Assembly: GCA_043823085.1 (NCBI GenBank)
Contig: JBDRBE010000004.1
Coordinates: forward strand, 269,992 to 333,991
Origin: Candidatus Levyibacteriota bacterium
Lineage (GTDB): Bacteria; Patescibacteriota; Microgenomatia; Levybacterales; UBA12049
DNA: 64,000 bases
Reading direction: 5' to 3'
Below the pieces are notes generated by a model. The model was given only the letters and a program-made list of their open reading frames with translations. It searched no databases and was not told the origin of the DNA. A program made the position numbers and the translations under genes. Shown here in pieces: positions 1-57,700 of the stretch. Position 1 is the stretch's first letter; every line of letters starts with the position of its first letter.

Positions 1-64
1 AATGTGGTCAAGGCGCGTGTCTGAAGAACACGTTATTGGTGTTCGATTCACCACTTCGGCACCA
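1..64 (+). tRNA. tRNA-Phe(GAA), 5' end truncated by window edge
   Basis: Anticodon stem-loop cgtgt-ctGAAga-acacg, T arm ggtgttcgattcacc, acceptor 3' strand cttcggc followed by acca. Confidence 0.6.
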
Positions 65-848: not shown

Positions 849-979
849 ATAGCCTATATATCAAGCACTTTATCTGCCAATGATTGTTTGTCAAAATTAA
901 ACATTTGTTGCTATATTAGACCAATTCATAATTCTTAATTCCTGATTCCTGATTCAACAAAGGTTCGCGGTGGGGGGAC

Positions 980-4806: not shown

Positions 4807-4869
4807 TAAAATAACATTTAAATTTTAACAGATAAGAGTAAATCGAGCAAGATTAAGAATTTAAACTTT

Positions 4870-4921
4870 ATGAAAAAGATAATTTTAGCCTCTGCCTCTC
4901 CCCGAAGAAAAGAATTGTTAA
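4870..4921 (+). repeat. 52-bp direct repeat, copy 1 (duplicate of the maf 5' end; copy 2 at 5881..5932; 3 mismatches)
   Basis: atgaaaaagataattttagcctctgcctctccccgaagaaaagaattgttaaa versus atgaaaaagataattttagcctctgcctctcctcgaagagaagaattgttaaa. Confidence 0.85.
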
Positions 4922-5748
4922 ACTCTCTGTGGTGTTGGTGGAGGAAATACACTTTCTCCGCGGGGTGAGTTTGCAACCTTTATAACCGCATTTTTATCCA
5001 GCCGAAGTGTAAGAGCATAAGAAACCTTAGGAATGCCATCCTGAGGTCTTGGCTTATATTCAACTATCGTGGCAGATACTCCTGAAAGATTAGTTGCAAG
5101 ATCACCTACCCAACCATTCTGTTCGCTACTTTCACTAACATGATGCCATTTTTGATTCCTTCTGGCAAGGTTGATTAACAAAGGTAATGTAGCTCTATCC
5201 GTAAGCAAACCAATTCTTTTAAGCACTGGTTCTAATACCGAAGGATCTGTATGATCAAGTAAATAAAGATAATCACGAGATTGAAATGAGCCTGGGGTCT
5301 TTAGTTCATCTTGAAAAACGTCTTCTACGCCTGCAGGTTTTCCTTCCAATTCTCTTTCCACCTGAATTTTTTCAACCATCTCATGTATGTCATCTGCCAT
5401 CTTACGCAAGTTTTGACTTTTTCCACATAACATCCTTCTACGCTCATCACCTTCAGGAAATCCTTCAGCAACTTCATATAAAATATTATCTAACACTTCT
5501 ACTGGACTTTCTGCCAATTTTTCTTCTACTTCTCGTCTTGCCCTTTCTCCTGCCATCCTAGCAACATCAGCAATTACCCTACGTTGTTCTCGAGGAATAT
5601 CTAGTCCTATTGTTGGGACTATAATCTGTGCTTTTGTTCGCAACTCTGCTCTACGGGCTGAATCGCCCTTGGTATGTCGATTTATACGAGATTCCACTTG
5701 TTGGAGAGATGGTCTTGATCCTACTTCAGATCTTGGCTCACCATTCAT
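4918..5748 (-). CDS. hypothetical protein (276 aa) on a GC-enriched insertion; distant paralog of 21776..22441
   Basis: Long ORF with visibly higher GC than flanks. Shares N-terminal M-N-E-P..GSR and C-terminal YAL...RGE..PPP segments with the 221-aa protein at 21776..22441. Confidence 0.6.
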   Translation of the reverse strand: MNGEPRSEVGSRPSLQQVESRINRHTKGDSARRAELRTKAQIIVPTIGLDIPREQRRVIADVARMAGERARREVEEKLAESPVEVLDNILYEVAEGFPEGDERRRMLCGKSQNLRKMADDIHEMVEKIQVERELEGKPAGVEDVFQDELKTPGSFQSRDYLYLLDHTDPSVLEPVLKRIGLLTDRATLPLLINLARRNQKWHHVSESSEQNGWVGDLATNLSGVSATIVEYKPRPQDGIPKVSYALTLRLDKNAVIKVANSPRGESVFPPPTPQRV

Positions 5749-5880
5749 ATAGTGTCTTTGATGCTAGCATAGTTTTTTTACAAATGCAAGTGGTTTTTTC
5801 TTAAATACCTGTTAAAATACAGAGAGTAAAAATTTGTTTCCCGTACACGGGAGGGGTAAGGAAAGCTTATCCCGCATTTT

Positions 5881-6462
5881 ATGAAAAAGATAATTTTAGC
5901 CTCTGCCTCTCCTCGAAGAGAAGAATTGTTAAAAAATATCGGATTGAAATTCAGCGTTGAGCCAAGCAACTTAGATGAGAACATGACGCTAAATCTAAAA
6001 CCAGCTAAACTTGCTGAATTTTTATCATTCCAAAAAGCTAAAACCGTGGCCAAAAAATATAAAAATTCGATTATTATTGCCGCCGACACAATCGTTGTAA
6101 TCGGAAATGATATTTTAGGAAAAGCGCATACTGACAAAGAGGCAAAACAGATGTTAAATAAACTGAATGGAAAATCTCACTTGGTAATTACCGGATTTAC
6201 AATTATCGATAGCAATACAAATAAAAAAGTAACCAAATCCGAAAAAACAAAAGTATTCTTTAAAAAACTCAATGCACATGAAATAGATAATTATATAGCA
6301 ACAGGCGAACCGGTAAAAAAAGGAGGGGCGGGATCGTATTGCATTCAGGGTTTTGCCTCGATGTTTATAAAAAAAATTAAAGGAGACTATTTTAATGTTG
6401 TCGGCCTGCCGATATATTCGCTTATGGAATCTCTAAAAAAATTTGGCATCAAAGTTTTGTAA
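5881..6462 (+). CDS. maf: Maf-like nucleotide pyrophosphatase (septum formation protein Maf)
   Basis: N-terminal IILASASPRR with downstream conserved Maf/Ham1 motifs; 193 aa. Confidence 0.8.
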   Translation: MKKIILASASPRREELLKNIGLKFSVEPSNLDENMTLNLKPAKLAEFLSFQKAKTVAKKYKNSIIIAADTIVVIGNDILGKAHTDKEAKQMLNKLNGKSHLVITGFTIIDSNTNKKVTKSEKTKVFFKKLNAHEIDNYIATGEPVKKGGAGSYCIQGFASMFIKKIKGDYFNVVGLPIYSLMESLKKFGIKVL

Positions 6463-10662: not shown

Positions 10663-11721
10663 ATGGAAGAAGAGTTGATTGGTATTAAAAATGCCGCGGT
10701 TTCGCTTATTTTTGACGCCAAAGATAAGAAAACACTTGAAGAAACTAAACTTCAGTTTTTAGGAAGAAGCGGAAAATTAACTTTGGCAATTAAAGAAATT
10801 ATCAAAGTTCCCCTTATTAAAAGAGCAGAAATAGGAAGACTTGCCAACGAGGTTAAACAAGCGATAGAAGACGCGCTTGTGAATCAAGAATTAAGAATTA
10901 AGAATCTAGAATCAACGAAGCGAAAAGAAAATGTTGATAAAACTGTGCCCGGCATAAAACCAAAAATAGGCCATCTTCACCCAATGACGCAAGTTTTAAA
11001 TGAGGTTATTGATATTTTTAAAGGCATTGGATTCCAAGCTGCGGACGGGCCGGAAATAGAAACGGATTACTATAACTTCACTGCCTTAAACATGCCACCA
11101 AACGCACCGTCACGCGATACGCAAGCGACTCTTTATTTGGACACCCGAAATAGCAAAGCTGAGCCAGGACAAATTTTGTTACGAACCCAAACCTCTAATA
11201 TGCAGGTTAGGGTTATGGAGAAAACTAAACCACCAATCAGAGTAATAGTTCCGGGAAAAACATACCGCGTTGATGACGTAGATGCTTCACATAGTTTTGA
11301 ATTCTGGCAACTTGAAGGATTTATGGTGGATAAAGACGTTAGAATGACAGATCTTCTTGGAACAATTGATTATGTTCTTAAGCGCTTTATGGGAAAAAAC
11401 ACAAAAACAAAATTTGCCACAACTAATTTTTCATTCGTAGAGCCGGGAATCGACACGTATATGGAATGCACTGTATGCAAAGGGAAAGCCCGCCTGCCGA
11501 ACGGGCAGGGCTGTAGTTTTTGCAAACAAAGTGGATGGAGCGAAATAATGCCCGCGGGCATGATTCACCCAAATGTTTTAAGAGCCGCAGGTTACGATAG
11601 CCAAAAAGTTTCAGGATTTGCTTTTGCAATTGGCCTTTCAAGACTGACAACTCTCCGCTACCAAATGGACGATTTAAGATTATTAACCAATCCGGATTTG
11701 AGAATCCTTGAACAATTTTAA
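10663..11721 (+). CDS. pheS: phenylalanyl-tRNA synthetase alpha subunit (with Cys4 zinc-ribbon insertion as in Firmicutes-type PheS)
   Basis: Class II motifs; FSFVEPGIDTYMECTVCKGK...CSFCKQSGWSEIMPAGMIHPNVL; C-terminal FAFAIGLSRL. Confidence 0.9.
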   Translation: MEEELIGIKNAAVSLIFDAKDKKTLEETKLQFLGRSGKLTLAIKEIIKVPLIKRAEIGRLANEVKQAIEDALVNQELRIKNLESTKRKENVDKTVPGIKPKIGHLHPMTQVLNEVIDIFKGIGFQAADGPEIETDYYNFTALNMPPNAPSRDTQATLYLDTRNSKAEPGQILLRTQTSNMQVRVMEKTKPPIRVIVPGKTYRVDDVDASHSFEFWQLEGFMVDKDVRMTDLLGTIDYVLKRFMGKNTKTKFATTNFSFVEPGIDTYMECTVCKGKARLPNGQGCSFCKQSGWSEIMPAGMIHPNVLRAAGYDSQKVSGFAFAIGLSRLTTLRYQMDDLRLLTNPDLRILEQF

Positions 11722-31440: not shown

Positions 31441-31935
31441 TTAAGGATTTACGTTTGCACTTGACAAGCCGTAATTACAAACGCCGCCGCAACTGGCATT
31501 GCTTGGAACATTCCGGCATTTATAATCTTTTACACCGTTCTTATAAAAACAGAGCTCTTTATCCGTACTATTATCTAGGCTAGCATAAATATAATAACTC
31601 TGTCCAGCTTCTAAATCAGAATAGTAAATATAATTTTTTGCTTCACTAGGATCTTTTGGTAAAACAGTCAAATATGGAATCCACTGCTGTCCCCAATCGG
31701 CAACAGAATCATCCAGTCTAACAATTCTAAAAAGTGGATTTTTTTGCGATGATTTGGGATATCGGCCGTGATTTTGATAATAATTTTCAAGAGCTGTTTG
31801 CAGTGTCTTAAGATCCGACTTTCTTCTTAAGTCGTTTGTTTTTTTAAAATCCTCGAGATACTTTGTGTTTTGTAAAATATATGCTCCTATAATTGCCAGA
31901 ACGATAATTATAAACAGTGTTTGAATTTTCTTCAT
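31441..31935 (-). CDS. pilin-like protein, paralog of 30944..31423, without a canonical GFTLIE motif
   Basis: Hydrophobic N-terminus; DLKTLQTALENYY; Cys pair near the C-terminus. Confidence 0.5.
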   Translation of the reverse strand: MKKIQTLFIIIVLAIIGAYILQNTKYLEDFKKTNDLRRKSDLKTLQTALENYYQNHGRYPKSSQKNPLFRIVRLDDSVADWGQQWIPYLTVLPKDPSEAKNYIYYSDLEAGQSYYIYASLDNSTDKELCFYKNGVKDYKCRNVPSNASCGGVCNYGLSSANVNP

Positions 31936-32723
31936 AACAATCTCAAAAATGGTATCAACTCAATTATTTCATGACTATAAAAAAACGCAAGTAATGTTCC
32001 TAAAACTAGAAACGGGCCAAAAGGGATTGTGTCCTTGGAAAACTTTTTCCTGCCAGCTATGACAAGCGCTAGCGCCACGAAAGCGCCGATAATAAAAGCC
32101 ATATAAAGCGCGATAATAATTTTTGGAAATCCCAAAAAAAGACCGGCCAAAAAAACATATTCAACATCGCCAAAGCCCATTCCTTTTCCTTTGGTAATCA
32201 AAAAGATAAGAAGGAAAAAGAAAAAAGCGCCAAAACCTGCCAAAAGATGAATCAGGAATAAGGAATTAAGAATTAGGGATACGTAGGCAAATGTCGCAAC
32301 AACGGCGACAAGAAGAATTCGGTCGGGGATAATCCCATATTTTAAATCGATAAAAAAAATAACGATGAGAGAGGAAACTATAAAAAGATAATAAATTAAT
32401 TCAGCAAAATATTTGATATTTGATATTTGATATTTGATATTTTCATTGGGGAAAAAAAGAAAAACTAGAACAAAAGTGATTCCAGTCGTTAACTCAACAA
32501 CCGGATAATAAAATGAAATAGGGGAGTGACAATAGCGGCAACGGCCTTTAAGAATAATAAAAGAAACAAACGGAATTAAATCATACCAAGCCAATTTTTT
32601 TTTACAGGCTTCGCAATGCGACCGGCCTTTAAATACTGACTCACCGCGGGGAAGTCTATCGATTACAACATTAAGAAAACTTCCAATACCAAGACCTAAA
32701 AAAAAGAGCAAAAATATAACCAC
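31932..32723 (-). CDS. pilD: prepilin peptidase (A24 family)
   Basis: CxxC...CxxC zinc motif (GRSHCEACKK...CRYCHSPIS), multiple TM segments, acidic catalytic residues. Contains a heptanucleotide repeat. Confidence 0.85.
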   Translation of the reverse strand: MVIFLLFFLGLGIGSFLNVVIDRLPRGESVFKGRSHCEACKKKLAWYDLIPFVSFIILKGRCRYCHSPISFYYPVVELTTGITFVLVFLFFPNENIKYQISNIKYFAELIYYLFIVSSLIVIFFIDLKYGIIPDRILLVAVVATFAYVSLILNSLFLIHLLAGFGAFFFFLLIFLITKGKGMGFGDVEYVFLAGLFLGFPKIIIALYMAFIIGAFVALALVIAGRKKFSKDTIPFGPFLVLGTLLAFFYSHEIIELIPFLRLL

Positions 32724-37414: not shown

Positions 37415-37460
37415 TCGCAAAGAGTTTCTCGGTTCTTTGTCATTCTGAACTTGTTTCAGA
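37415..37460 (+). promoter_or_regulatory. inverted repeat attctgaa-cttgt-ttcagaat in the divergent pilB/holB intergenic region
   Basis: 8-bp perfect stems read directly. Candidate operator or hairpin. Confidence 0.35.
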
Positions 37461-37484
37461 ATCTCATTAAATACTTTAAAGTCT

Positions 37485-40468: not shown

Positions 40469-40488
40469 CCTCACATCGATTACATATT

Positions 40489-41304
40489 ACCAAAGGTGGC
40501 ATACCTAATCCACCTCTAAGGTGGATTTCTATTGACACCTCTGGTTTTCGACACTAGAATAAATTATGCCCGGAAGAAATACTATTCTTGCGAACGGGGA
40601 AACATATCATATTTTTAATAGAGGAGTTGCCTCTCAACCAACATTTATAGACAAAAAAGATTATCAGAGAGTTATGGATAGTTTCTTCTATTACCAAAAC
40701 ATTACTCCTCCAATAAAGTATTCAAAATTTTTAATGATTTCCGCTAAAGAGAGAGACAATATTATAAATAATTTAAGAAAAAAGAAATTTTTCCATGCTG
40801 ATATCATTGCTTATTGTTTTATGCCTACTCATTTCCATTTATTGTTAAGACAAAATGAAGAAAATGGAATCTCAAAATTTGTAGGAAACTTCACCAACAG
40901 TTATACAAGATACTTTAATACAAAACGGGAAAGAAAAGGACCAATCTTTGAAGGCAAATTCGGTTCTGTAAGAATTGAAACAAGCGAACAACTACTTCAT
41001 GTTTCGAGATACATTCACCTTAATCCTTACTCGTCTTATCTTGTTAAAACAACTCAGGAGCTCGAGTCTTTTACCTATTCATCATTTAATGAATATATCG
41101 CAGGTAATAGTAATCTTTGTAATAAAGACTTCATTCTGGAAAATTTTAAGACCGCTAAGGAATATAAAAAATTCGTTTTTGATCAAGCAGACTACCAAAA
41201 AAAACTAAACAACATTAAACACCTTCTCTTGGAGAATTAGCGGAAATACCAAAGGTGGCATACCTAATCCACCTCTAAGGTGGATTTCTATTGACACCTC
41301 TGGT
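40489..41304 (+). mobile_element. IS200/IS605-like element: HUH (Y1) transposase gene flanked by identical 57-bp hairpin-containing ends in direct orientation
   Basis: accaaaggtggcatacctaatccacctctaaggtggatttctattgacacctctggt occurs at 40489..40545 and 41248..41304. Each copy holds the ccacc-tctaa-ggtgg hairpin. Confidence 0.7.
40566..41240 (+). CDS. IS200-like / REP-associated tyrosine (HUH Y1) transposase
   Basis: HUH motif PTHFHLLL; catalytic Tyr region LHVSRYIHLNP. Confidence 0.7.
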   Translation: MPGRNTILANGETYHIFNRGVASQPTFIDKKDYQRVMDSFFYYQNITPPIKYSKFLMISAKERDNIINNLRKKKFFHADIIAYCFMPTHFHLLLRQNEENGISKFVGNFTNSYTRYFNTKRERKGPIFEGKFGSVRIETSEQLLHVSRYIHLNPYSSYLVKTTQELESFTYSSFNEYIAGNSNLCNKDFILENFKTAKEYKKFVFDQADYQKKLNNIKHLLLEN

Positions 41305-45631: not shown

Positions 45632-47686
45632 ATGGATTTATCGTTTTTGTTGGAAAAGCCCGTAACTCTAGCAATGGGTGCAGGAATTTTATCCATCCTC
45701 TACGGAATATTTTTAACCTTTCAAGTCTTGCAAAAACCCCGCGGCGATAAAAAAATGAACGACATTTCAGATGCCATTTCCGAAGGCGCAACTGCATATT
45801 TGAGCAAACAATATAAAGTAGTTGCCCTAATTGGCGTGGTAATTTTTGGAATCCTCCTTTATTTTTACAATTTTGAAACCGCAGCCGGCTTTGCCTTGGG
45901 CGCAATTTTTTCAGCTATTGCCGGAATTGTCGGAATGAATGTTGCAGTAAGAAGCAACATTCGAACGGCTCAAGCTGCAAAATCCGGTCTTGCACCAGCT
46001 TTTAATCTTGCCTTTCAAGGCGGAGCAGTCACCGGCCTTATGGTTGCCGGACTTGCACTTCTTTCTGTAAGCGGACTTTATTTTGTATTAGTACGTATGG
46101 GTCAGGGACATGTTGCCAATCTCCAACCTTTTATCGCTCTTGGTTTTGGCGGATCTTTAATTTCGGTTTTTGCAAGACTGGGCGGAGGAATTTACACAAA
46201 GAGCGCTGATGTTGGAACCGACATGGTAGGAAAAATCGAAAAGGGAATTCCCGAAGATGATCCAAGAAATCCGGGAGTTATTGCAGATTTAGTAGGGGAT
46301 AATGTCGGTGATGACGCAGGAATGGCCGCAGATCTTTTCGAAACTTATGTTATTACCGCAGTTGCGGCTATGATTTTAGGAAGTTTGGCTTTTGGAGGGA
46401 ATACAATTTTAACCTATCCAATGTTAATCGGCGCGGTTTCAATTATCGCAAGCATTATCGGAACCTGGTTTGTCAGGCTCAAAGGAAAAAATATTATGAC
46501 TGCGCTTTATCAAGGACTTGGAATTACAGCTGTTCTTTCCCTTGTTGGTTTTTATTTTATCACAACAACTTTATTTAAAGATATTCCAGGAATGGAAATT
46601 GTAGCAAGTCCTAAAGCAATGCCATTATTTTTGTCATCTGTCATTGGAATTGTTGTAACTATTGGCCTCGTAATAATTACTGAATTTTATACCTCCAAAA
46701 AATTCTCCTCGGTTAAAACAATTGCCCAAAGCTCCAGTACCGGACACGGTACAAATATTATTGCAGGACTTGCTATTTCGATGAAATCGACTTTTGCTCC
46801 GATTATTTTAATTTCGGCCGGAATTTTATTTGCTTATAATATGGCCGGACTCTATGGAATTGCAGTTGCGGCCATGAGCATGTTATCGCTAACCGGAATC
46901 ATTGTCGCCATTGATGCTTTTGGACCAATTACTGACAACGCGGGCGGAATAGCCGAAATGGCAGGACTAGATCAAAAGGTAAGGGATGTAACAGATCCTC
47001 TTGACGCGGTTGGAAATACAACTAAGGCAGTAACTAAAGCGTATGCTATCGGTTCTGCAGGACTGGCGGCTTTGGTTTTATTTGCAAGCTACACACAGGA
47101 ATTGGCACGTTCGCCAAAAGGAATAAATATCGCATTTTCGCTTTCCGATCCGCTAGTCATAGTAGGCCTTTTTATTGGCGGAGCATTGCCTTATCTTTTT
47201 GGCGCGCTTGCCATGGAAGCGGTTGGAAAAGCCAGTATGTCTATTGTTAATGAAGTCAGAAGACAATTTAGAGAAATAAAAGGAATCATGACAGGAAAGG
47301 CAAAACCGGAATACGGAAAAGCAGTTAATATTGTTACCAGTGCCGCAATAAAAGAAATGATTATTCCAACTCTTATTCCAATACTTGCGCCAATTATTAT
47401 CGGATTTACCCTTGGACCAAAAGCACTTGGAGGAATGCTGGTTGGTACAATTGTGACAGGGCTTTTTGTCGCAATTTCTATGACAACAGGCGGTGCGGCT
47501 TGGGATAATGCAAAAAAATATATTGAAGAAGGAAATTTTGGCGGCAAAGGAAGTTTTGCTCATCAAGCGGCTGTGACCGGCGATACTGTCGGGGATCCTT
47601 ACAAAGATACTGCAGGACCGGCAATCAACCCAATGATTAAGGTCATAAATATTGTCGCGCTTTTAATTGCAGCCTTCTTAATATAA
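45632..47686 (+). CDS. hppA: membrane-bound proton/sodium-translocating pyrophosphatase
   Basis: [47 protein letters not shown] motifs; 684 aa polytopic. Confidence 0.95.
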
Positions 47687-47691
47687 ATAAC

Positions 47692-47812
47692 ATGGACGAT
47701 GGAAAATAGAAAATAGATGCTGGAATTTGATGATGGAAAATAGAAAATAGAAATTCTACCCTCAAACATCCAACCTCAAAATCTATTTTCTAGCTTCCAC
47801 CATCTATCGTCA
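47692..47812 (+). repeat. complex repeat region: 19-bp direct repeat gatggaaaatagaaaatag x2 plus inverted partner ctattttctag, bracketed by gacgat / atcgtc
   Basis: Read directly in the hppA-gyrA intergenic region. Confidence 0.6.
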
Positions 47813-50295: not shown

Positions 50296-51336
50296 ATGAA
50301 AATTGATGGAAAAGAAATTGCTAAAAATATCCTCGAAGATCTCAAAATTAGAGTTGAAAAATTAAAAGAGAAAAATATAATCCCAGGACTTTCGATAATT
50401 TTAGTTGGAGATAACCCGGCTTCCAAAGCTTATGTTCGGCAAAAAGAATTAAAAGCAGAAAAAATAGGAGCAAATGCTGTCGTTTTGAATTTAGATTCTA
50501 AAACTTCAAATTCTGAATTACTAAAAACAATTGAGCAATGGAACAATGATAGCAATATTCATGGAATGATTGTTCAGCGACCTCTTCCTTCGCATATTGA
50601 TGAGAAAAAAATTGATCTTGCAACCGACCCCAAAAAAGATATTGACTCCTTCCATCCAAAGTCTCCTTATCCAATGCCTCTTGCCGCAGCAGTTTTGAAA
50701 ATTTTAGAGGAAATTTATTTATTTACAAATGGCGCGGGAAGACACAAAATTTTCGCAAAGCGAGGTACAACGCATCATAACAAAGATTTTTATCGCGGGG
50801 AGTCTTTTCATGAGGCGATGTCTTCACTAGAGTCGCCGAAGGTGACCGTATCCCGAGACGAGCCACTTGACGGCGAGTCGGAGGGACGCTTGTGTTTGAA
50901 GACTCGCCAAACTGAAAAGACGACCTCAGCGATAAACCCTATCAACTTTAAAGAGTGGTTAAAATCTAAAAGAATTGTCGTGATTGGTAAAGGGAAAACA
51001 GGCGGGGGCCCAACTATTCAAATGCTAAAAAAAATGGGGGTTGAACTTCAAATTATCGACAGCAAAACCCAAAATCCAAAAGATTTCACAAAATCTGCAG
51101 ACATAATTATTTCAACTGTCGGAAAACCAAATATTTTGAAGCCGGAAATGATTAAAAAGGGAATAATTTTAATAAGTGTGGGCCAGCATAAAGGAATTGA
51201 CGGAAAATTCCATGGAGATTATGAGGAAAATGAAATTAAAAATATCGCCTCTTTTTACACCCCAACTCCCGGGGGCATCGGCCCTGTCAACGTCGCCATG
51301 CTTCTTGAAAACCTCGTCACCGCCGCCCAAAATTGA
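50296..51336 (+). CDS. folD: methylenetetrahydrofolate dehydrogenase/cyclohydrolase with an in-frame insertion of about 76 aa and a recoded 3' end
   Basis: N-terminal MKIDGKEIA...YVRQKELK; C-terminal TPTPGGIGPVNVAMLLENL. GC-rich insert between ILEE and IVVIGKG. Confidence 0.8.
   Translation: MKIDGKEIAKNILEDLKIRVEKLKEKNIIPGLSIILVGDNPASKAYVRQKELKAEKIGANAVVLNLDSKTSNSELLKTIEQWNNDSNIHGMIVQRPLPSHIDEKKIDLATDPKKDIDSFHPKSPYPMPLAAAVLKILEEIYLFTNGAGRHKIFAKRGTTHHNKDFYRGESFHEAMSSLESPKVTVSRDEPLDGESEGRLCLKTRQTEKTTSAINPINFKEWLKSKRIVVIGKGKTGGGPTIQMLKKMGVELQIIDSKTQNPKDFTKSADIIISTVGKPNILKPEMIKKGIILISVGQHKGIDGKFHGDYEENEIKNIASFYTPTPGGIGPVNVAMLLENLVTAAQN
50712..50940 (+). repeat. GC-rich in-frame insertion in folD sharing motifs with the purH/carB palindromic elements
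   Basis: Contains tcatgaggcg...cctcagcg termini, atcccgagac core, and ggcgagtc/gactcgcc inverted repeats. About 50% GC against about 33% in flanks. Confidence 0.5.
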
Positions 51337-51370
51337 TTTTCATCTAGCCTTGTGTTAATATCACGCTAAT

Positions 51371-52033
51371 ATGAGCAAAGAAAAGAAAGCAGGAGAACTA
51401 GCAAGACGTATTGAAGAAAAGAGACAAGAATCAATACGAGAAGAGGTCACTAAATTATTAGAAAAGATAAATCAAAAAATTTGCAGAATGAAGCAGTGGC
51501 GAGTAGATATCGAGGAAGCAGGAGTAGAAAATGTCTCTGTGCCAGAAGTTATACTGGCAACTGATGAATTAACAAAAGAAGCATTTGAAGAACTTGAAGT
51601 TAAACATATTCCAATCGTTATTCTGTCAGCTCCCCAAGAAAGGCAACAAGGTCCGATAAAAGTGTTCGTTACCAATGATCATCCTATTGATCATTTTAGT
51701 GTCACAAATTTTGATTTATCTGCTCATCTTCCCTTAGTCACAAGCCCCATTTGCTTAACAACTGCATTTAAAGATTATCGATATCCAGAGAATAGATATT
51801 ATAGTTTTTTCCCAATAGAAGGACGGATGAATCCTTGTCTCCCTTATTTACCAGGAGTTGATGGAACTAACTCTGCAAGTTTTCAAGATCCACGAGATGA
51901 AGAAAGTATGACCATAATTGTAATTGATGCCCGTTTTCCAACATCAGAAAGAGATGTGACATTTTTTCCAGCTGAAGTTCCGAGAGATGCAATGGAAACA
52001 CTTAGCGGTGTGCAATTTTTTCGCGATCGATAA
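51371..52033 (+). CDS. hypothetical protein (220 aa), cargo of an insertion at the folD 3' end
   Basis: ORF lies between the two copies of the 24-bp core caacgtcgccatgcttcttgaaaa. Charged N-terminus. Confidence 0.55.
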   Translation: MSKEKKAGELARRIEEKRQESIREEVTKLLEKINQKICRMKQWRVDIEEAGVENVSVPEVILATDELTKEAFEELEVKHIPIVILSAPQERQQGPIKVFVTNDHPIDHFSVTNFDLSAHLPLVTSPICLTTAFKDYRYPENRYYSFFPIEGRMNPCLPYLPGVDGTNSASFQDPRDEESMTIIVIDARFPTSERDVTFFPAEVPRDAMETLSGVQFFRDR

Positions 52034-52203
52034 CAAAGTTTCGAATTCCCACATCCACTTCTTTCCACTTTAATGACATATATTATTAAAGTGATTTATA
52101 CTTATCTCAACTCTATGACTTCTAGCGTTCATTTTATAACTTCGTTGCTTTTGGATTATCACGGCAATCTTTCCGAGGACCGTCCCCATTATTTATCTCC
52201 CTT

Positions 52204-52261
52204 CAACGTCGCCATGCTTCTTGAAAATTTAGTCGTTGCAACAGAAACTAGCTCAACATAA
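52204..52261 (+). pseudogene. displaced native-like 3' end fragment of folD (encodes ...SPFNVAMLLENLVVATETSST*)
   Basis: 24-bp identity with folD 51288..51311 followed by AT-rich codons for the same C-terminal peptide. Confidence 0.6.
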
Positions 52262-54633: not shown

Positions 54634-54717
54634 GTCATGCCGAAATCTTTAGGTGTCGTCCTGAATTTATTTCAGGACCTCGTTTTGCTCGAGATGCCGA
54701 AACAAGTTCGGCATGAC
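54634..54717 (+). repeat. 84-bp nested palindromic element (MITE/REP-like) between carA and carB
   Basis: Outer arms gtcatgccgaa / ttcggcatgac (11 bp perfect). Inner hairpin gtcctgaa-ttta-tttcaggac. Confidence 0.7.
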
Positions 54718-54731
54718 AAGGAGAAAATAAT

Positions 54732-57700
54732 ATGAAAATTAAAAAAGTACTAATTTTGGGCTCTGGAGCGTTGAAAATTGGCGAGGCGGGGGAGTTTGAC
54801 TACTCCGGTTCTCAAGCCATTAAAGCCCTTAAAGAGGAAGGGATAAAAACAGTTTTAGTTAATCCAAACATTGCCACTATTCAAACCTCAAAATTTTTAG
54901 CAGACACTGTTTACTTTCTTCCCATTGATGATTTTTTTGTCGAAAAAATAATTAAAAAAGAAAAGCCAGACGGGATCCTTCTCTCTTTTGGCGGCCAAAC
55001 AGCTCTCAATTGCGGAATAAATCTCTACAAAAAAGGGGTTCTTAAAAAGAATAATGTACAGATACTTGGCACTCCGATCTCGGCAATTCTTTTAACCGAA
55101 GATCGCAATAAATTCGCCAAACATCTTTTAAAAATAGGGGTTCCGATTCCAAAAAGCCAGACAGCAAATTCAGCAAAACAGGTAAAAATAATCGCTAAAG
55201 AAATTGGTTTTCCGGTGATGGTAAGAGCCGGTTTTACTCTAGGAGGACAAGGATCGGGAATTGCACAAAACGAGAAGGAATTAAATAAAATAGCGGAAGC
55301 GGCTTTTTCTTTTGCCCCGCAGGTTTTAATTGAAAAATATTTACATCACTACAAAGAAATTGAATACGAAGTTGTCCGCGACAAATTTGATAATTGTATT
55401 ACAGTCTGCAATATGGAAAACATGGACCCTATGGGAATTCACACCGGCGAATCTATTGTGGTTGCTCCTAGCCAAACTTTAAATAATTTTGAATATCAGG
55501 CTTTGCGAAACGCAGCCATAAAAATTGTCCGAAGTCTAAAAATCGTCGGCGAATGCAATGTCCAATTTGCATTAAACCCAAACCCTAATCGCAATGTCAT
55601 CCTGAGGAGCAAAGCGACGAAGGATCTCACCGACGTTCGAGATTCTTCGACTTCGCCTCAGAATGACAATAATGATATTGAATACTACGTTATCGAGGTC
55701 AACGCCCGGCTTTCCCGAAGTTCAGCTCTGGCATCAAAAGCAACCGGATATCCGCTTGCCTATGTCGCAGCAAAATTGGCACTCGAAAAAAATCTTACTT
55801 CTATCAAAAATAAAGTTACCAGCATTACCCAATCCTGTTTTGAACCGGCTCTTGATTATATTGTTGTCAAAATTCCCCGCTGGGATATAGAAAAATTCAA
55901 AGGCGCAGAAGAACAAATTGGAAGCAGTATGAAATCAGTCGGAGAAGTGATGGGAATTGGAAGGACTTTTGAAGAAACGTATCAAAAAGCCATCCGCATG
56001 CTTGATTTAGATTTTGAGGGCGCGGTAAATGAAAAAATAATAAAAAATGAAAAGTCATTAACTTATCAATTAAAAACACCAACCCCAAAACGCATTTTCG
56101 CAATTGCCAAAGCGATTTCGCAAAACTTTTCCATTAAAAGAATCAATCAATTAACTGGAATTGACCCGTGGTTTTTATATCATATTAAAAGCATCGTTGA
56201 TCAAGAAAAAAACCTCCGGAATAAAAAAATAAATGATTTATCCAAAGAAAAATTATTAGAATTAAAGAGATTAGGATTTTCCGACAAACGCATCGGGCAG
56301 CTTCTGGGAGTCTTGGGACTTGAAATTAGAAAAATTAGGAAGAAATGGAAAATTTTGCCAAACGTTTTTCAAATTGACACTCTGGCAGGCGAATTTCCCG
56401 CTAAAACCAATTATCTTTACACAACATACGGTAATAATCATGATGATGTTAAACCGGCCGGAAAAAGCGGAGTGATAGTTTTGGGCTCAGGCCCTTACAG
56501 AATTGGTTCGTCTGTTGAATTTGACTGGACAAGTGTTAATACTGTTTTGGCGCTAAAAGAACATAAAAAACAATCGATAATAATAAACTGCAATCCGGAA
56601 ACCGTTTCCACAGACTATGATATTTCCGACCGGCTTTATTTTGAAGAATTATCATTTGAAAGAATCGCAGATATTTATGAATTTGAAAATCCGTTGGGCG
56701 TTATTATTTCTGTGGGCGGACAAACGCCAAACAACAGAGCAAAATCGCTAAAAAGTTATGGCTTTCATATTCTTGGGACAGACCCCGCAAATATTGACAG
56801 GGCAGAGGATAGGAATAAATTTTCCAAACTTCTTGACCATCTTAAAATTTCACAGCCTCCCTGGAACAAATTTTCTAACATTAAAGATGCTTTAAGTTTT
56901 TGCGAAAAAGTAGGCTACCCTGTATTAATTCGTCCTTCTTATGTACTATCTGGAACAAGTATGAATATCTGTTATGACCAAAAAGAATTTCTTCATTATC
57001 TTAAAAAAGCTTCTTACATTTCCAAAGAATATCCCGTAACAGTTTCCAAATTTATTAAAGATGCAAAGGAAATTGAGTATGACGCGGTCGCCCAAAAAGG
57101 AAAAATCAAGACCTCGGTGATTTCCGAACACATAGAAAATGCCGGAATTCATTCGGGAGACGCAACAATTGTACTCCCGCCGCAAAAAATTTATCTTGAA
57201 ACGCAAAGAAAAATCCATAACGTTGCCAATAAATTAGCAGAGTCTCTTGTTATTTCCGGCCCTTTCAACATACAATTTTTAGCCAAAGATAATGATATTT
57301 CTGTAATCGAAATTAATCTTCGCTCATCGCGGACTTTTCCTTTTATTTCCAAGGTTACCGGCGTTGATTTTATCAAACTCTCTGTAGATTCTTTTTTTGG
57401 CAAACATATTCCGAAGATTTTCACCAATTCATTAAAATTTACAGCAGTAAAAGTTGCCCAGTTTTCTTTTGCAAGACTTACCGGCGCAGATCCGATAATT
57501 CGTGTCGAAATGGCATCAACCGGCGAGGTGGCTTGTTTTGGAGAAAATGTTGAGGAGGCGTTTTTAAAAGGAGAACTTGCTGTTGGTGGAAAAATTCCAA
57601 AAATCGGTGTCTTCCTAAGTTTAGGGGGAGAAGAAAATAAAATTAAATTTTTAGAAAACTTTCCTCATTTGAAATTTTTGAATCTTCCGATTTTTGCAAC

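What the first reader, a model, noticed from the sequence alone, without database searches (positions are those of the whole stretch)
50712..50940. About 230-bp GC-rich in-frame insertion in folD with motifs of the same element family
Between ILEE and the NADP-binding IVVIGKG motif, folD carries about 76 extra codons at roughly 50% GC against roughly 33% in the rest of the gene. The segment contains atcccgagac (also in the purH element), tcatgagg…cctcagcg termini, and ggcgagtc/gactcgcc inverted repeats. It encodes …SRDEPLDGESEG…, where SRD echoes the SRDSS of the other copies. It could be two tandem or nested elements. FolD orthologs normally have only about 8 residues here.
Basis: partly seen in the sequence, partly recalled or inferred. 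Interest (0 to 1): 0.7.

Follow-up and report, generated by a model that had tools for sequence, protein, structure and literature searches.

The report
Nested hairpin repeats translated inside folD
The extra ~70 codons in this bacterium's folD gene are two selfish hairpin DNA repeats lodged in frame in a tolerant surface loop; one of them belongs to an undescribed, strongly structured family also found inside six other housekeeping genes of related candidate-phyla bacteria.

Summary
The insertion is real. folD (50296-51336) has 81 codons (50713-50955) where solved FolDs have about 10.

It has two parts. The first (50731-50793) is a remnant of a hairpin repeat I call F-type, which also occurs in relatives' folD loops and once between genes. 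The second (50790-50935) is a complete 146-nt element I call b-type, folded as a long stem with a three-way junction.

I found eight more b-type copies in metagenomes. All sit in frame inside housekeeping genes: trxB-like, sufC (two), dnaX (two), a Trp/Tyr tRNA synthetase, prs and a membrane protein. The stems covary and the junction sequences are conserved. Ten of ten single units have the same length modulo 3, so they are read through rather than spliced out.

F-type and b-type share the termini GCGCGGGGAG and CGACCTCAGCGC. Neither is related to the purH and carB elements, which belong to a different family with GTCAT...ATGAC ends.

AlphaFold2 predicts the insert as a disordered excursion from an intact FolD core. 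The closest known analogue is the Rickettsia palindromic elements. I found no Rfam family and no published description. How the elements move is unknown.

The parts
50296..51336 (+). folD coding sequence, 346 aa, the host gene
   Evidence: ORF. Pfam finds PF00763 and PF02882. Solved FolDs align to residues 3-123 and 222-346. AlphaFold2 gives the core pLDDT above 90.
50713..50955 (+). Hypervariable loop of 81 codons between LKILEE and WLKSK. This is the tolerant site that collects repeats.
   Evidence: Among 120 relatives the loop is 1-81 aa, and this one is the longest. Residues ~146-212 have pLDDT below 50.
50731..50793 (+). Remnant of an F-type hairpin element. It consists of a T5-like end GGCGCGGGAAG (50731-50741), the left arm ACACAAAATTTTCGCAAAGCGA (50742-50763), and a decayed right arm AACAAAGATTTTTATC (50779-50793).
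   Evidence: It matches the F-type copy in the L085 folD loop (score 32, z = 7.3, best of 1000 shuffles 25) and the intergenic copy in L084 (score 28, z = 5.8). It is absent from the closest relative, P0002.
50790..50935 (+). Complete b-type element, in the same orientation as folD and translated as ...YRGESFHEAMSSLESPKVTVSRDEPLDGESEGRLCLKTRQTEKTTSAI...
   Evidence: Covariance model R1 gives 126.9 bits, E = 3e-28. Eight homologous copies exist elsewhere. RNA folding energy is -66.9 kcal/mol.
50794..50802 (+). T5 terminus CGCGGGGAG of the b-type element. It pairs with T3.
   Evidence: Conserved in all 9 copies and in F-type copies.
50803..50810 (+). Helix P0, 5' strand TCTTTTCA. It pairs with TGAAAAGA at 50913-50920.
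   Evidence: Perfect 8-9 bp inverted repeat (I5). The sequence differs in every copy but pairing is kept; the outer T + P0 helix supplies 11 of the 13 pairs changed on both sides.
50814..50825 (+). Helix P1, 5' strand GGCGATGTCTTC. It pairs with GAAGACTCGCC at 50898-50908.
   Evidence: This was the search pattern, so its conservation is partly due to how copies were found. L109 and L110, found independently, keep it with 1-2 mismatches.
50826..50897 (+). Three-way-junction core. In order: J1/2 ACTAG (50826-50830), variable hairpin 1 (50831-50846), conserved CGTATCCCGAG (50847-50857), variable hairpin 2 (50858-50882), conserved GGGACG (50883-50888), and CTTGTGTTT (50889-50897).
   Evidence: CTAG, CGTATCCCGAG and GGGACGCTTGCGTT are conserved across copies from different genomes. 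The hairpins differ in sequence and length but stay paired.
50921..50931 (+). T3 terminus CGACCTCAGCG of the b-type element
   Evidence: Conserved in b-type and F-type copies. The closest relative, P0002, keeps T5 + ACTG + T3 without the core (L001 510-535).
17721..17775 (+). purH in-frame hairpin element of the GTCAT...ATGAC family. Listed for comparison; it is not part of the folD element family.
   Evidence: about 10 extra residues compared with PDB 4ehi.
55596..55667 (+). carB in-frame hairpin element, GTCATCCTGAGG...CCTCAGAATGAC. Listed for comparison; it belongs to the same family as the purH element.
   Evidence: a clean 30-aa insertion compared with PDB 5dot.
40488..41304 (+). IS200-like Y1 (HUH) transposase gene (40566-41240) flanked by exact 58-nt hairpin repeats. 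It is the only enzyme in the window that acts on single-stranded DNA hairpins, so it is a candidate mobiliser by inference only.
   Evidence: PF01797 at E = 3.9e-9, 37.1 bits against a cutoff of 23. Repeats D2 and I2/I5. Its flanking repeats show no similarity to T5/T3.

Best explanation
The folD insert is selfish palindromic repeat DNA that landed in frame in the one loop of FolD that tolerates extra residues, and it is translated as a disordered surface excursion.

It has two parts:
- A decayed F-type hairpin element at 50731-50793.
- Abutting it, a complete 146-nt b-type element at 50790-50935.

Both types belong to one superfamily defined by shared termini (5' GCGCGGGGAG and 3' CGACCTCAGCGC) but carry unrelated interiors.

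The b-type interior is a long stem (T, P0, P1) that ends in a three-way junction with conserved unpaired nucleotides and variable side hairpins. Copies spread, by a route not yet identified, into tolerant loops of essential genes in Microgenomates-type candidate-phyla bacteria. Only copies that keep the host frame open survive.

Shown here:
- The anatomy of the insert.
- Homology to eight other copies.
- In-frame status of every copy.
- Covariation in the stems.
- Lack of relationship to the purH and carB elements.
- A predicted disordered loop.

Inferred, not shown:
- That the elements are mobile.
- That the insert is translated in vivo.
- Which enzyme moves them. A single-stranded-DNA hairpin transposase such as the IS200-like Y1 enzyme at 40566-41240 is a candidate, but no evidence links it to these elements.
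For: 1. The insertion sits exactly between the two FolD domains, and the gene is otherwise intact. AlphaFold2 gives the core pLDDT above 90 and residues ~146-212 below 50.

2. The site is a hot spot.
- In 120 relatives the loop is 1-81 aa and carries translations of several different hairpin repeat families.
- At the DNA level these loops are hairpins.
- The closest relative, P0002 (77% identical), lacks both the 72-nt F block and the 114-nt b core.

3. b-type is a dispersed family.
- A pattern scan found true homologues in low-GC metagenome contigs, and the other 14 hits were chance.
- Two further copies were found independently, through a peptide and through a SufC ortholog.
- Covariance model scores are 98-143 bits.

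4. Every copy lies inside a housekeeping gene and leaves the host frame open: trxB-like, sufC-like ATPase, dnaX, a class I W/Y tRNA synthetase, prs and a membrane protein.

5. Ten of ten single T5..T3 units, ranging from 26 to 146 nt, have length 2 mod 3. This is a multiple of 3 once the terminal G and C are trimmed. The chance of all ten agreeing is about 5e-5.

6. Structure is under constraint.
- 93% of cells are paired.
- 13 pairs changed on both sides, against 8.0 +/- 1.5 in shuffles (0 of 500) and 3-6 in slid controls.
- An independent RNAalifold prediction gives the same fold, with 18 compensatory pairs.

7. F-type is also dispersed. The intergenic copy in L084 (5528-5650) has arms nearly identical to the folD-loop copy in L085. 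F-type and b-type share T5 and T3.

8. Precedent: Rickettsia palindromic elements of ~105-150 bp are inserted in frame in unrelated metabolic genes (PMC10969869, PMC3184786).
Against: - Only one b-type copy and one F-type remnant occur in this 64-kb window. Copy number in this genome is therefore unknown.
- No target-site duplication, no clean terminal inverted repeat and no autonomous parent element were found.
- The relative P0002 keeps T5 + ACTG + T3, so there is no truly empty site to prove an insertion event.
- The element core is about 90-95% identical between genomes whose host genes are saturated at third codon positions. The pairs are dnaX L096/L100 (44% third-position identity) and sufC L091/L110 (42%). 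A purely neutral resident parasite should have decayed, so this needs either recurrent re-insertion or gene conversion, or a function.
- Translation has not been observed.
Confidence: 0.7

Rival explanations
1. One reading: the folD insert consists of one or two copies of the same element family as the in-frame elements in purH and carB.
For: - It shares the 10-mer ATCCCGAGAC with the purH element.
- Both kinds are GC-rich in-frame hairpins with ...GAGG / CCTCAG... near their ends.
- The purH/carB family does occupy the folD loop in relative P0028.
Against: - Pairwise alignment is not significant (score 20, p = 0.03-0.10), whereas purH against carB scores 40 with a shuffle maximum of 24.
- The covariance model of the folD element finds nothing at purH or carB, even at E <= 10 with filters off.
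- The termini differ (GCGCGGGGAG/CGACCTCAGCGC against GTCATyCTGrG/CyCAGrATGAC), and so does the internal architecture.
Confidence: 0.05
2. The b-type element is a functional structured nucleic acid that hosts maintain by selection. It might be a catalytic or regulatory RNA, an antisense RNA gene, or a single-stranded DNA site. On this view it is inherited vertically at fixed sites rather than being a mobile parasite.
For: - It shows the classic signature of a functional fold: conserved unpaired junction nucleotides, covarying helices and variable peripheral hairpins.
- The core is about 90-95% identical where flanking third codon positions are saturated, even when the element is read in different frames.
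- It occupies the same site in diverged orthologs of dnaX and of sufC.
- Two conserved G.U wobble pairs exist on one strand only.
- The window copy has drifted toward AT (54% GC against 59-70% in the others), yet its P0 helix is still perfectly paired.
Against: - Copies occur in both orientations relative to the host gene: one sense and six antisense independent sites.
- They occur in unrelated genes with no shared pathway.
- P0002 has lost the core and still has an intact folD.
- No Rfam family matches.
- The same termini carry an unrelated interior in F-type, which is typical of mobile families.
Confidence: 0.12
3. The element is an intron-like sequence that is removed from the mRNA, so FolD is made without the insert.
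For: It is highly structured, recurs at the same site in orthologs in a homing-like way, and has conserved termini.
Against: - All copies are free of stop codons in the host frame.
- Ten of ten units keep length 0 mod 3 despite hairpins of variable length. Neither constraint would apply to a spliced sequence.
- Most copies are antisense to the host mRNA.
- There is no group I or group II intron or ribozyme match in Rfam.
Confidence: 0.04
4. The insert is a lineage-specific adaptive protein loop, selected at the amino-acid level.
For: The frame is open over 81 codons. The loop lies at the junction between the two domains, where a regulatory excursion is conceivable.
Against: - The peptide is not conserved: the closest relative lacks it.
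- Homologous DNA is read in other frames and on the other strand in other genes.
- pLDDT is below 50 throughout the insert.
- A search of 1.84 billion representative proteins found only one real peptide match, and that is a spurious ORF on another copy.
Confidence: 0.04

Closest known systems
Rickettsia palindromic elements (RPE; Ogata et al. 2000, as summarised in PMC10969869 and PMC3184786)
   Same: - A repeat of about 100-150 bp that folds as a hairpin.
- Several families are inserted in frame into unrelated housekeeping or metabolic genes.
- The insert is read through as an extra peptide at sites compatible with the protein fold.
- No transposase gene lies inside the element.
   Different: - The host is a different phylum (candidate phyla radiation, Microgenomates-like) rather than an intracellular alphaproteobacterium.
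- No sequence relationship was tested or is expected.
- b-type has a three-way-junction core with conserved unpaired nucleotides.
- Its core is conserved across genomes that are saturated at synonymous sites.
- Two interiors share one pair of termini.
- Copies are read in several frames and on both strands rather than encoding one conserved peptide.
Classical bacterial MITEs (for example Correia, ERIC, Nezha, BOX)
   Same: Small, non-autonomous, hairpin-forming and dispersed. They occasionally fuse in frame with genes.
   Different: Only a short imperfect terminal inverted repeat is present (GCGC + G-rich/C-rich). No target-site duplication was seen, no parent IS is known, and all copies found so far are inside genes except one F-type copy.
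REP elements with RAYT / IS200-IS605 Y1 transposases (REPtrons, PATEs)
   Same: These are hairpin DNA thought to be handled as single strands, with no target duplication. A Y1 transposase with flanking hairpin repeats is encoded in this window (40488-41304). Nested or adjacent half-elements are common in both.
   Different: REPs are 20-40 nt, extragenic and carry a GTAG or CGTC tag. The repeats flanking the Y1 gene here (CCACCT..AGGTGG) are unrelated to T5/T3, and no link between enzyme and element has been shown.
The GTCATyCTGrG...CyCAGrATGAC hairpin family in this window (purH 17721-17775, carB 55596-55667)
   Same: The same lifestyle in the same genome: a GC-rich hairpin inserted in frame in a biosynthetic gene. 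This family is also found in the folD loop of relative P0028.
   Different: The termini, size (55-72 nt against 146 nt) and architecture all differ. There is no significant alignment and no covariance-model hit.

Membership tests
RPE-like in-frame palindromic repeats (a functional class, not a sequence family) | Dispersed family with several copies at unrelated loci | tested here: met
   Nine b-type copies lie in seven different host genes across metagenomes. F-type occurs in folD loops and once between genes. Within this genome only one copy was seen in 64 kb.
RPE-like in-frame palindromic repeats (a functional class, not a sequence family) | Palindromic; folds as a stable hairpin | tested here: met
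   z = -4.15 and -4.82 against shuffles. All copies fold alike at -62 to -96 kcal/mol.
RPE-like in-frame palindromic repeats (a functional class, not a sequence family) | Inserted inside ORFs with the host reading frame preserved | tested here: met
   All 9 copies are free of stops in the host frame. Unit length is constant modulo 3 in 10 of 10.
RPE-like in-frame palindromic repeats (a functional class, not a sequence family) | Insertion site compatible with the protein fold (surface or tolerant loop) | tested here: met
   By prediction only: pLDDT is below 50 for residues ~146-212 while the core is above 90. The site is hypervariable in 120 FolD relatives and in 120 SufC relatives.
RPE-like in-frame palindromic repeats (a functional class, not a sequence family) | Sequence homology to Rickettsia RPE-1..10 | not tested
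Homology is not expected, and the comparison is one of mechanism only.
Classical MITE | Terminal inverted repeats plus a target-site duplication | tested here: not met
   The termini GCGCGGGGAG and rc(T3) GCGCTGAGGTCG match only over GCGC plus a few bases. The flanks show extension of the palindrome rather than direct repeats.
Classical MITE | Derived from an identifiable autonomous IS with the same ends | not testable with these tools
   No T5...T3 pair encloses a coding-size segment in the low-GC candidate-phyla loci among the 1.45 Mb held; the few kb-scale pairings elsewhere rely on one-mismatch termini and look like chance.
REP / RAYT system | 20-40 nt palindromes with a GTAG or CGTC tag, similar to the repeats flanking a RAYT gene | tested here: not met
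   The Y1 transposase is present, but its 58-nt flanking repeats are unrelated to T5/T3 or to the b core. The element is 146 nt.
purH/carB element family of this window | Termini GTCATyCTGrG ... CyCAGrATGAC and alignable arms | tested here: not met
Known structured RNAs, ribozymes and introns (Rfam 15) | Match to a curated covariance model | tested here: not met
   There were no hits at gathering threshold, and none at E <= 1-10 with permissive filters, either on the window site or on six other copies.
Intein | Splicing-domain motifs, size of at least ~130 aa | tested here: not met
   The insert is 81 aa in total, has no Pfam domain and is predicted disordered.

The most novel reading that the evidence does not exclude
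The b-type element may be more than inert junk. It could be a new class of structured nucleic-acid element kept under nucleotide-level selection inside essential genes of candidate-phyla bacteria.

Its features are a three-way junction, conserved junction nucleotides and two strand-specific conserved G.U pairs. It shares its ends with a second element type.

It could be the recognition module of an unknown hairpin-directed single-stranded-DNA mobility system that re-targets the same tolerant loops. Alternatively, it could be an RNA with catalytic or regulatory activity embedded in, or antisense to, coding sequence.
Probability: 0.2. Interest if true: 0.85.

Novelty: new variant of a known kind. 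Interest (0 to 1): 0.62.

Why it matters
In-frame palindromic repeats in essential genes have been treated largely as a peculiarity of Rickettsia. This window and its relatives suggest that the same lifestyle is widespread in candidate-phyla bacteria with small genomes. Single tolerant loops of FolD and SufC are each colonised by several different hairpin families.

This has three consequences:
- It affects how proteins from these lineages are annotated, aligned and modelled.
- It offers a natural map of loops that tolerate insertions.
- It makes a question testable: how does a 146-nt element keep a near-identical core across genomes that have saturated synonymous sites?

The b-type consensus and covariance model give a concrete handle for a census and for biochemical tests.

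Tried and rejected
- **Peptide search.** I searched three open frames of the b core, concatenated, against 5.8 billion proteins. It returned nothing, not even the source protein, so I treat it as uninformative.
- **Genome-contig scan.** I ran it with a FolD alignment. The scan was effectively wasted.
- **blastn-short of the insert against the window.** It found no second copy, only 11-13-mers at chance level.
- **HMMER search of the 81-aa loop against 1.84 billion representatives.**
  - It gave two hits.
  - One is a repetitive artefact (P0121).
  - The other (P0122) led to a real extra copy in prs.
- **Two viral-contig scans** (b core; T5..T3) found nothing.
- **Rfam**, at gathering threshold and in permissive mode, found nothing.
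- **The two 220-aa ORFs.**
  - I compared the 220-aa ORF downstream of folD with a 220-aa ORF in L083.
  - They are unrelated.
- **Rejected explanations.**
  - Intein and group I/II intron: rejected on size, absence of motifs, and the frame and length constraints.
  - Assembly artefact: rejected because a separate Logan contig is identical and homologous copies exist elsewhere.
- **Literature.** Five searches for a report from candidate-phyla or Patescibacteria genomes found none in the held library.
Full report
**1. The observation**

folD occupies 50296-51336 on the + strand. Solved FolD structures align to residues 3-123 and 222-346. The query therefore has about 99 residues where they have about 31. 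Pfam finds only the two FolD domains.

The extra segment lies between helix ...PLAAAVLKILEE and ...WLKSKRIVVIGKG, at 50713-50955 (81 codons).

The excess is confined to 50790-50935 (54.1%); the block 50717-50788 is at background, 37.5%.

The region folds far better than shuffles. The 118-nt core folds at -48 kcal/mol (z = -4.15) and the 234-nt region at -77.6 kcal/mol (z = -4.82), with none of 200 shuffles as good. An identical sequence occurs in a separate Logan contig.

**2. The site is a hot spot**

The 120 best FolD homologues are Levybacteria-like candidate-phyla (CPR) proteins of 265-346 aa. They differ almost only in this loop, which is 1-81 residues long with a median of 16. The query has the longest.

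The loop peptides are recognisable translations of several different hairpin repeats. Examples are HSGERSDSRI...SQDDD, ILKQVQDD, YTPRVEPQF, HLRGGVAPAAHLEGEF and KSEARNPKSETN...FDIRISNF.

At the DNA level the loops of four relatives are hairpins. The loop of P0028 carries GTCATTCTGG...CCAGGATGAC, which is the family seen in this window's purH and carB.

**3. Anatomy of the insert**

The closest relative is P0002 (77% identical, L001). Its loop is only ATCTTTTATCGCGGGGAG-ACTG-CGACCTCAGCGATAAAC.... Relative to it, the window has two extra blocks.

*Block a (about 50717-50788).* It contains GGCGCGGGAAGACACAAAATTTTCGCAAAGCGA. This matches the left arm of a hairpin repeat that I call F-type (GCGCGGGGAG..CAAAATTTTCGCAGTTCGCA ... 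TGCGGAACAAGAAAATTTTCGTACCGACCTCAGCGC).
- F-type is present in the folD loops of L085, L084 and L083.
- A copy with nearly identical arms lies in the ppa-gyrA spacer of L084 (5528-5650).
- Block a against L085 scores 32 (z = 7.3, best of 1000 shuffles 25). Against the intergenic copy it scores 28 (z = 5.8).

*Block b.* This is a 117-nt hairpin (50803-50919) nested between CGCGGGGAG and CGACCTCAGCG.

**4. Block b belongs to a dispersed, structured family**

A metagenome scan with the two P1 arms (GGCGANGTCTTC N55-85 GAAGACTCGCC) returned 22 loci.
- Fourteen are GC-rich chance hits with alignment scores of 26 or less.
- Eight, from low-GC contigs, are true homologues with scores of 50-85.

Two more copies were found independently of that pattern:
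- L109, through a 75-aa spurious ORF hit.
- L110, through a SufC ortholog.

All copies have the same layout:

T5 GCGCGGGGAG - P0 (variable, paired) - TGA - P1 GGCGAyGTCTTC - rCTAG - hairpin 1 (variable) - CGTATCCCGAG - hairpin 2 (variable or absent) - GGGACG - CTTGCGTTy - P1' GAAGACTCGCC - GAAC - P0' - T3 CGACCTCAGCGC.

A covariance model (R1) scores the nine copies at 98-143 bits. The window copy, 50790-50935, scores 126.9 bits.

Measures on the nine-sequence alignment:
- 93% of cells are paired.
- 13 pairs changed on both sides, against 8.0 +/- 1.5 in shuffles (0 of 500) and 3-6 when partners are slid.

RNAalifold independently predicts the same fold plus hairpin 1, with 18 compensatory pairs. 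No Rfam family matches the site or the other copies.

**5. Where the copies sit**

| Locus | Host gene | Orientation relative to host |
|---|---|---|
| window | folD | sense |
| L088 | trxB-like oxidoreductase | antisense |
| L091 (same as L097 and L098) | sufC-like ATPase | antisense |
| L110 | sufC ortholog, same site as L091 | antisense |
| L096 and L100 | dnaX, same site in both | antisense |
| L099 | class I Trp/Tyr tRNA synthetase | antisense |
| L109 | prs | antisense |
| L102 | membrane protein | antisense |

Every copy lies inside a long ORF of a housekeeping gene and leaves the host frame open.

Part of the orientation bias can be explained by stop codons. Only 6 of 24 sense frames are free of stops, against 13 of 24 antisense frames.

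Host frames differ between copies, and even within the dnaX pair. The peptide is therefore not what is conserved.

All ten single T5..T3 units are congruent to 2 mod 3. Their lengths are 26, 104, 122, 125, 131, 134, 134, 134, 140 and 146 nt. Trimming the terminal G and C makes each a multiple of 3. The chance of all ten agreeing is about 5e-5. This argues for read-through translation and against splicing.

**6. Shared ends and composite copies**

F-type and b-type share T5 and T3 but nothing inside. The window copy is composite: an extra T5-like end and an F-type arm lie upstream of the b-type element. L088 also has an extra T5 upstream, and L096 has an extra T3 downstream.

P0002 retains T5 + ACTG + T3. 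ACTG is part of the conserved GAACTGA of b-type, so P0002 looks like a deletion derivative. I cannot exclude the alternative that the T5/T3 mini-hairpin is a target into which cores are inserted.

**7. Relationship to the purH and carB elements**

Both are real in-frame insertions. carB has a clean 30-aa insertion compared with 5dot, and purH has about 10 extra residues compared with 4ehi. They are related to each other (score 40; shuffle maximum 24).

The folD insert is not significantly related to either (score 20, p = 0.03-0.10). R1 does not detect them. Their termini are GTCATyCTGrG/CyCAGrATGAC.

**8. The protein**

AlphaFold2, run with a 30-sequence alignment, gives mean pLDDT 84.7 and pTM 0.81. 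The core is above 90. Residues ~146-212 are below 50, between helices 128-144 and 215-223. The insert is a predicted disordered excursion. Catalytic and NADP-binding motifs are invariant in the family alignment.

**9. What remains odd**

Between L096 and L100, dnaX is 63% identical at the protein level and 44% at third codon positions. Between L091 and L110, sufC is 70% and 42%. Yet the conserved blocks of the element, compared by eye on the alignments, are about 90-95% identical in both pairs. For the sufC pair the element is 80% identical overall and 68% at 'third' positions.

A neutral resident would have decayed. Either copies are repeatedly renewed by re-insertion or gene conversion from active sources, or the core is under selection.

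Two conserved G.U pairs exist only on the element's '+' strand, but that strand is antisense to the host gene at most sites.

The window copy is the most AT-rich (54% GC against 59-70% in the others), yet its P0 helix is perfectly paired.

**10. How the elements might move**

No target duplication and no autonomous parent were found. The window encodes an IS200-like Y1 transposase (PF01797, E = 3.9e-9) flanked by exact 58-nt hairpin repeats. This shows that a transposase of the family that acts on hairpin DNA is present. Its repeats are unrelated to T5/T3, so the link is only a hypothesis.

**11. Comparison with what is known**

The closest analogue is the Rickettsia palindromic elements. They are ~105-150 bp and inserted in frame in unrelated metabolic genes at sites compatible with the protein fold (PMC3184786; PMC10969869).

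Five searches of the held literature found no description of such elements in CPR/Patescibacteria. SufC of Curtissbacteria-like bacteria shows the same kind of hypervariable, repeat-filled loop. The phenomenon therefore appears general in this group.

**Verdict**

The best explanation is an RPE-like selfish element, at confidence 0.7. The unusual conservation of the b-type core keeps a more novel reading open, at about 0.2.

Noticed in passing
window 51283-52261: An identical 24-nt direct repeat (CAACGTCGCCATGCTTCTTGAAAA, the folD codons NVAMLLEN) occurs at 51283-51306 and 52203-52226. It brackets about 920 bp that hold a 220-aa ORF (51371-52033, no Pfam hit). The current folD end (...LVTAAQN*) is GC-rich, and the displaced original end (...LVVATETSST*) survives at 52203-52261. 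In relative L084, folD is followed directly by pyrB. This looks like a ~0.9-kb insertion into the 3' end of folD that supplied replacement final codons.
   Followed up: partly
window 4867-5933: The same pattern occurs at a maf-like gene. A 56-nt repeat, 96% identical and covering the ATG plus the first 17 codons, lies at 4867-4922 and 5878-5933. It flanks about 1 kb with a 276-aa ORF on the minus strand (4918-5748, no Pfam hit). This may be a second member of a class of ~1-kb insertions that duplicate a gene end.
   Followed up: partly
window 40488-41304: An IS200-like Y1 (HUH) transposase gene at 40566-41240 (PF01797, E = 3.9e-9) is flanked by exact 58-nt direct repeats. Each repeat is a hairpin with CCACCT-cta-AGGTGG. 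The unit resembles a REPtron or RAYT unit.
   Followed up: partly
window 17721-17775 and 55596-55667: Hairpin elements of the GTCATyCTGrG...CyCAGrATGAC family are inserted in frame in purH (about 10 extra residues compared with PDB 4ehi) and in carB (a clean 30-residue insertion compared with PDB 5dot). They are related to each other but not to the folD elements.
   Followed up: yes
window 924-956, 10880-10912, 32248-32280: Another repeat (AATTCTTAATTCCTGATTC-like) occurs once between genes and twice inside ORFs. In ORF 10663-11721 it reads VNQELRIKNLES. The other intragenic copy is in ORF 31932-32723. It resembles the KSEARNPKSETN-type loops seen in relatives' FolD.
   Followed up: no
window 37434-37465 and 54691-54722: Short intergenic hairpins of the GTCATTCTGAAC...GTTTCAGAATC / GCCGAAACAAGTTCGGCATGAC kind. 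One lies just upstream of carB.
   Followed up: no
SufC homologues P0123-P0242 (host gene of L091 and L110): SufC of Curtissbacteria-like CPR bacteria has a hypervariable loop between SVFNxLRKAK and FRxELLEYASSL. The aligned segment spanning it is 29-89 aa long. It is filled with translations of many hairpin repeat families, including b-type at the same site in orthologs that are 70% identical.
   Followed up: partly
L084 1695-4964: In a relative with the same gene order (gyrB-ppa-gyrA-folD-pyrB-carA-carB), gyrB carries an intein (PF14890). This is another kind of in-frame passenger in the same neighbourhood.
   Followed up: no
window 47103-47213 and 47692-47807: Further local inverted repeats. 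One 20-nt pair lies inside gyrB (47103-47122 and 47194-47213). A 54-nt imperfect palindrome lies in the gyrB-gyrA spacer.
   Followed up: no
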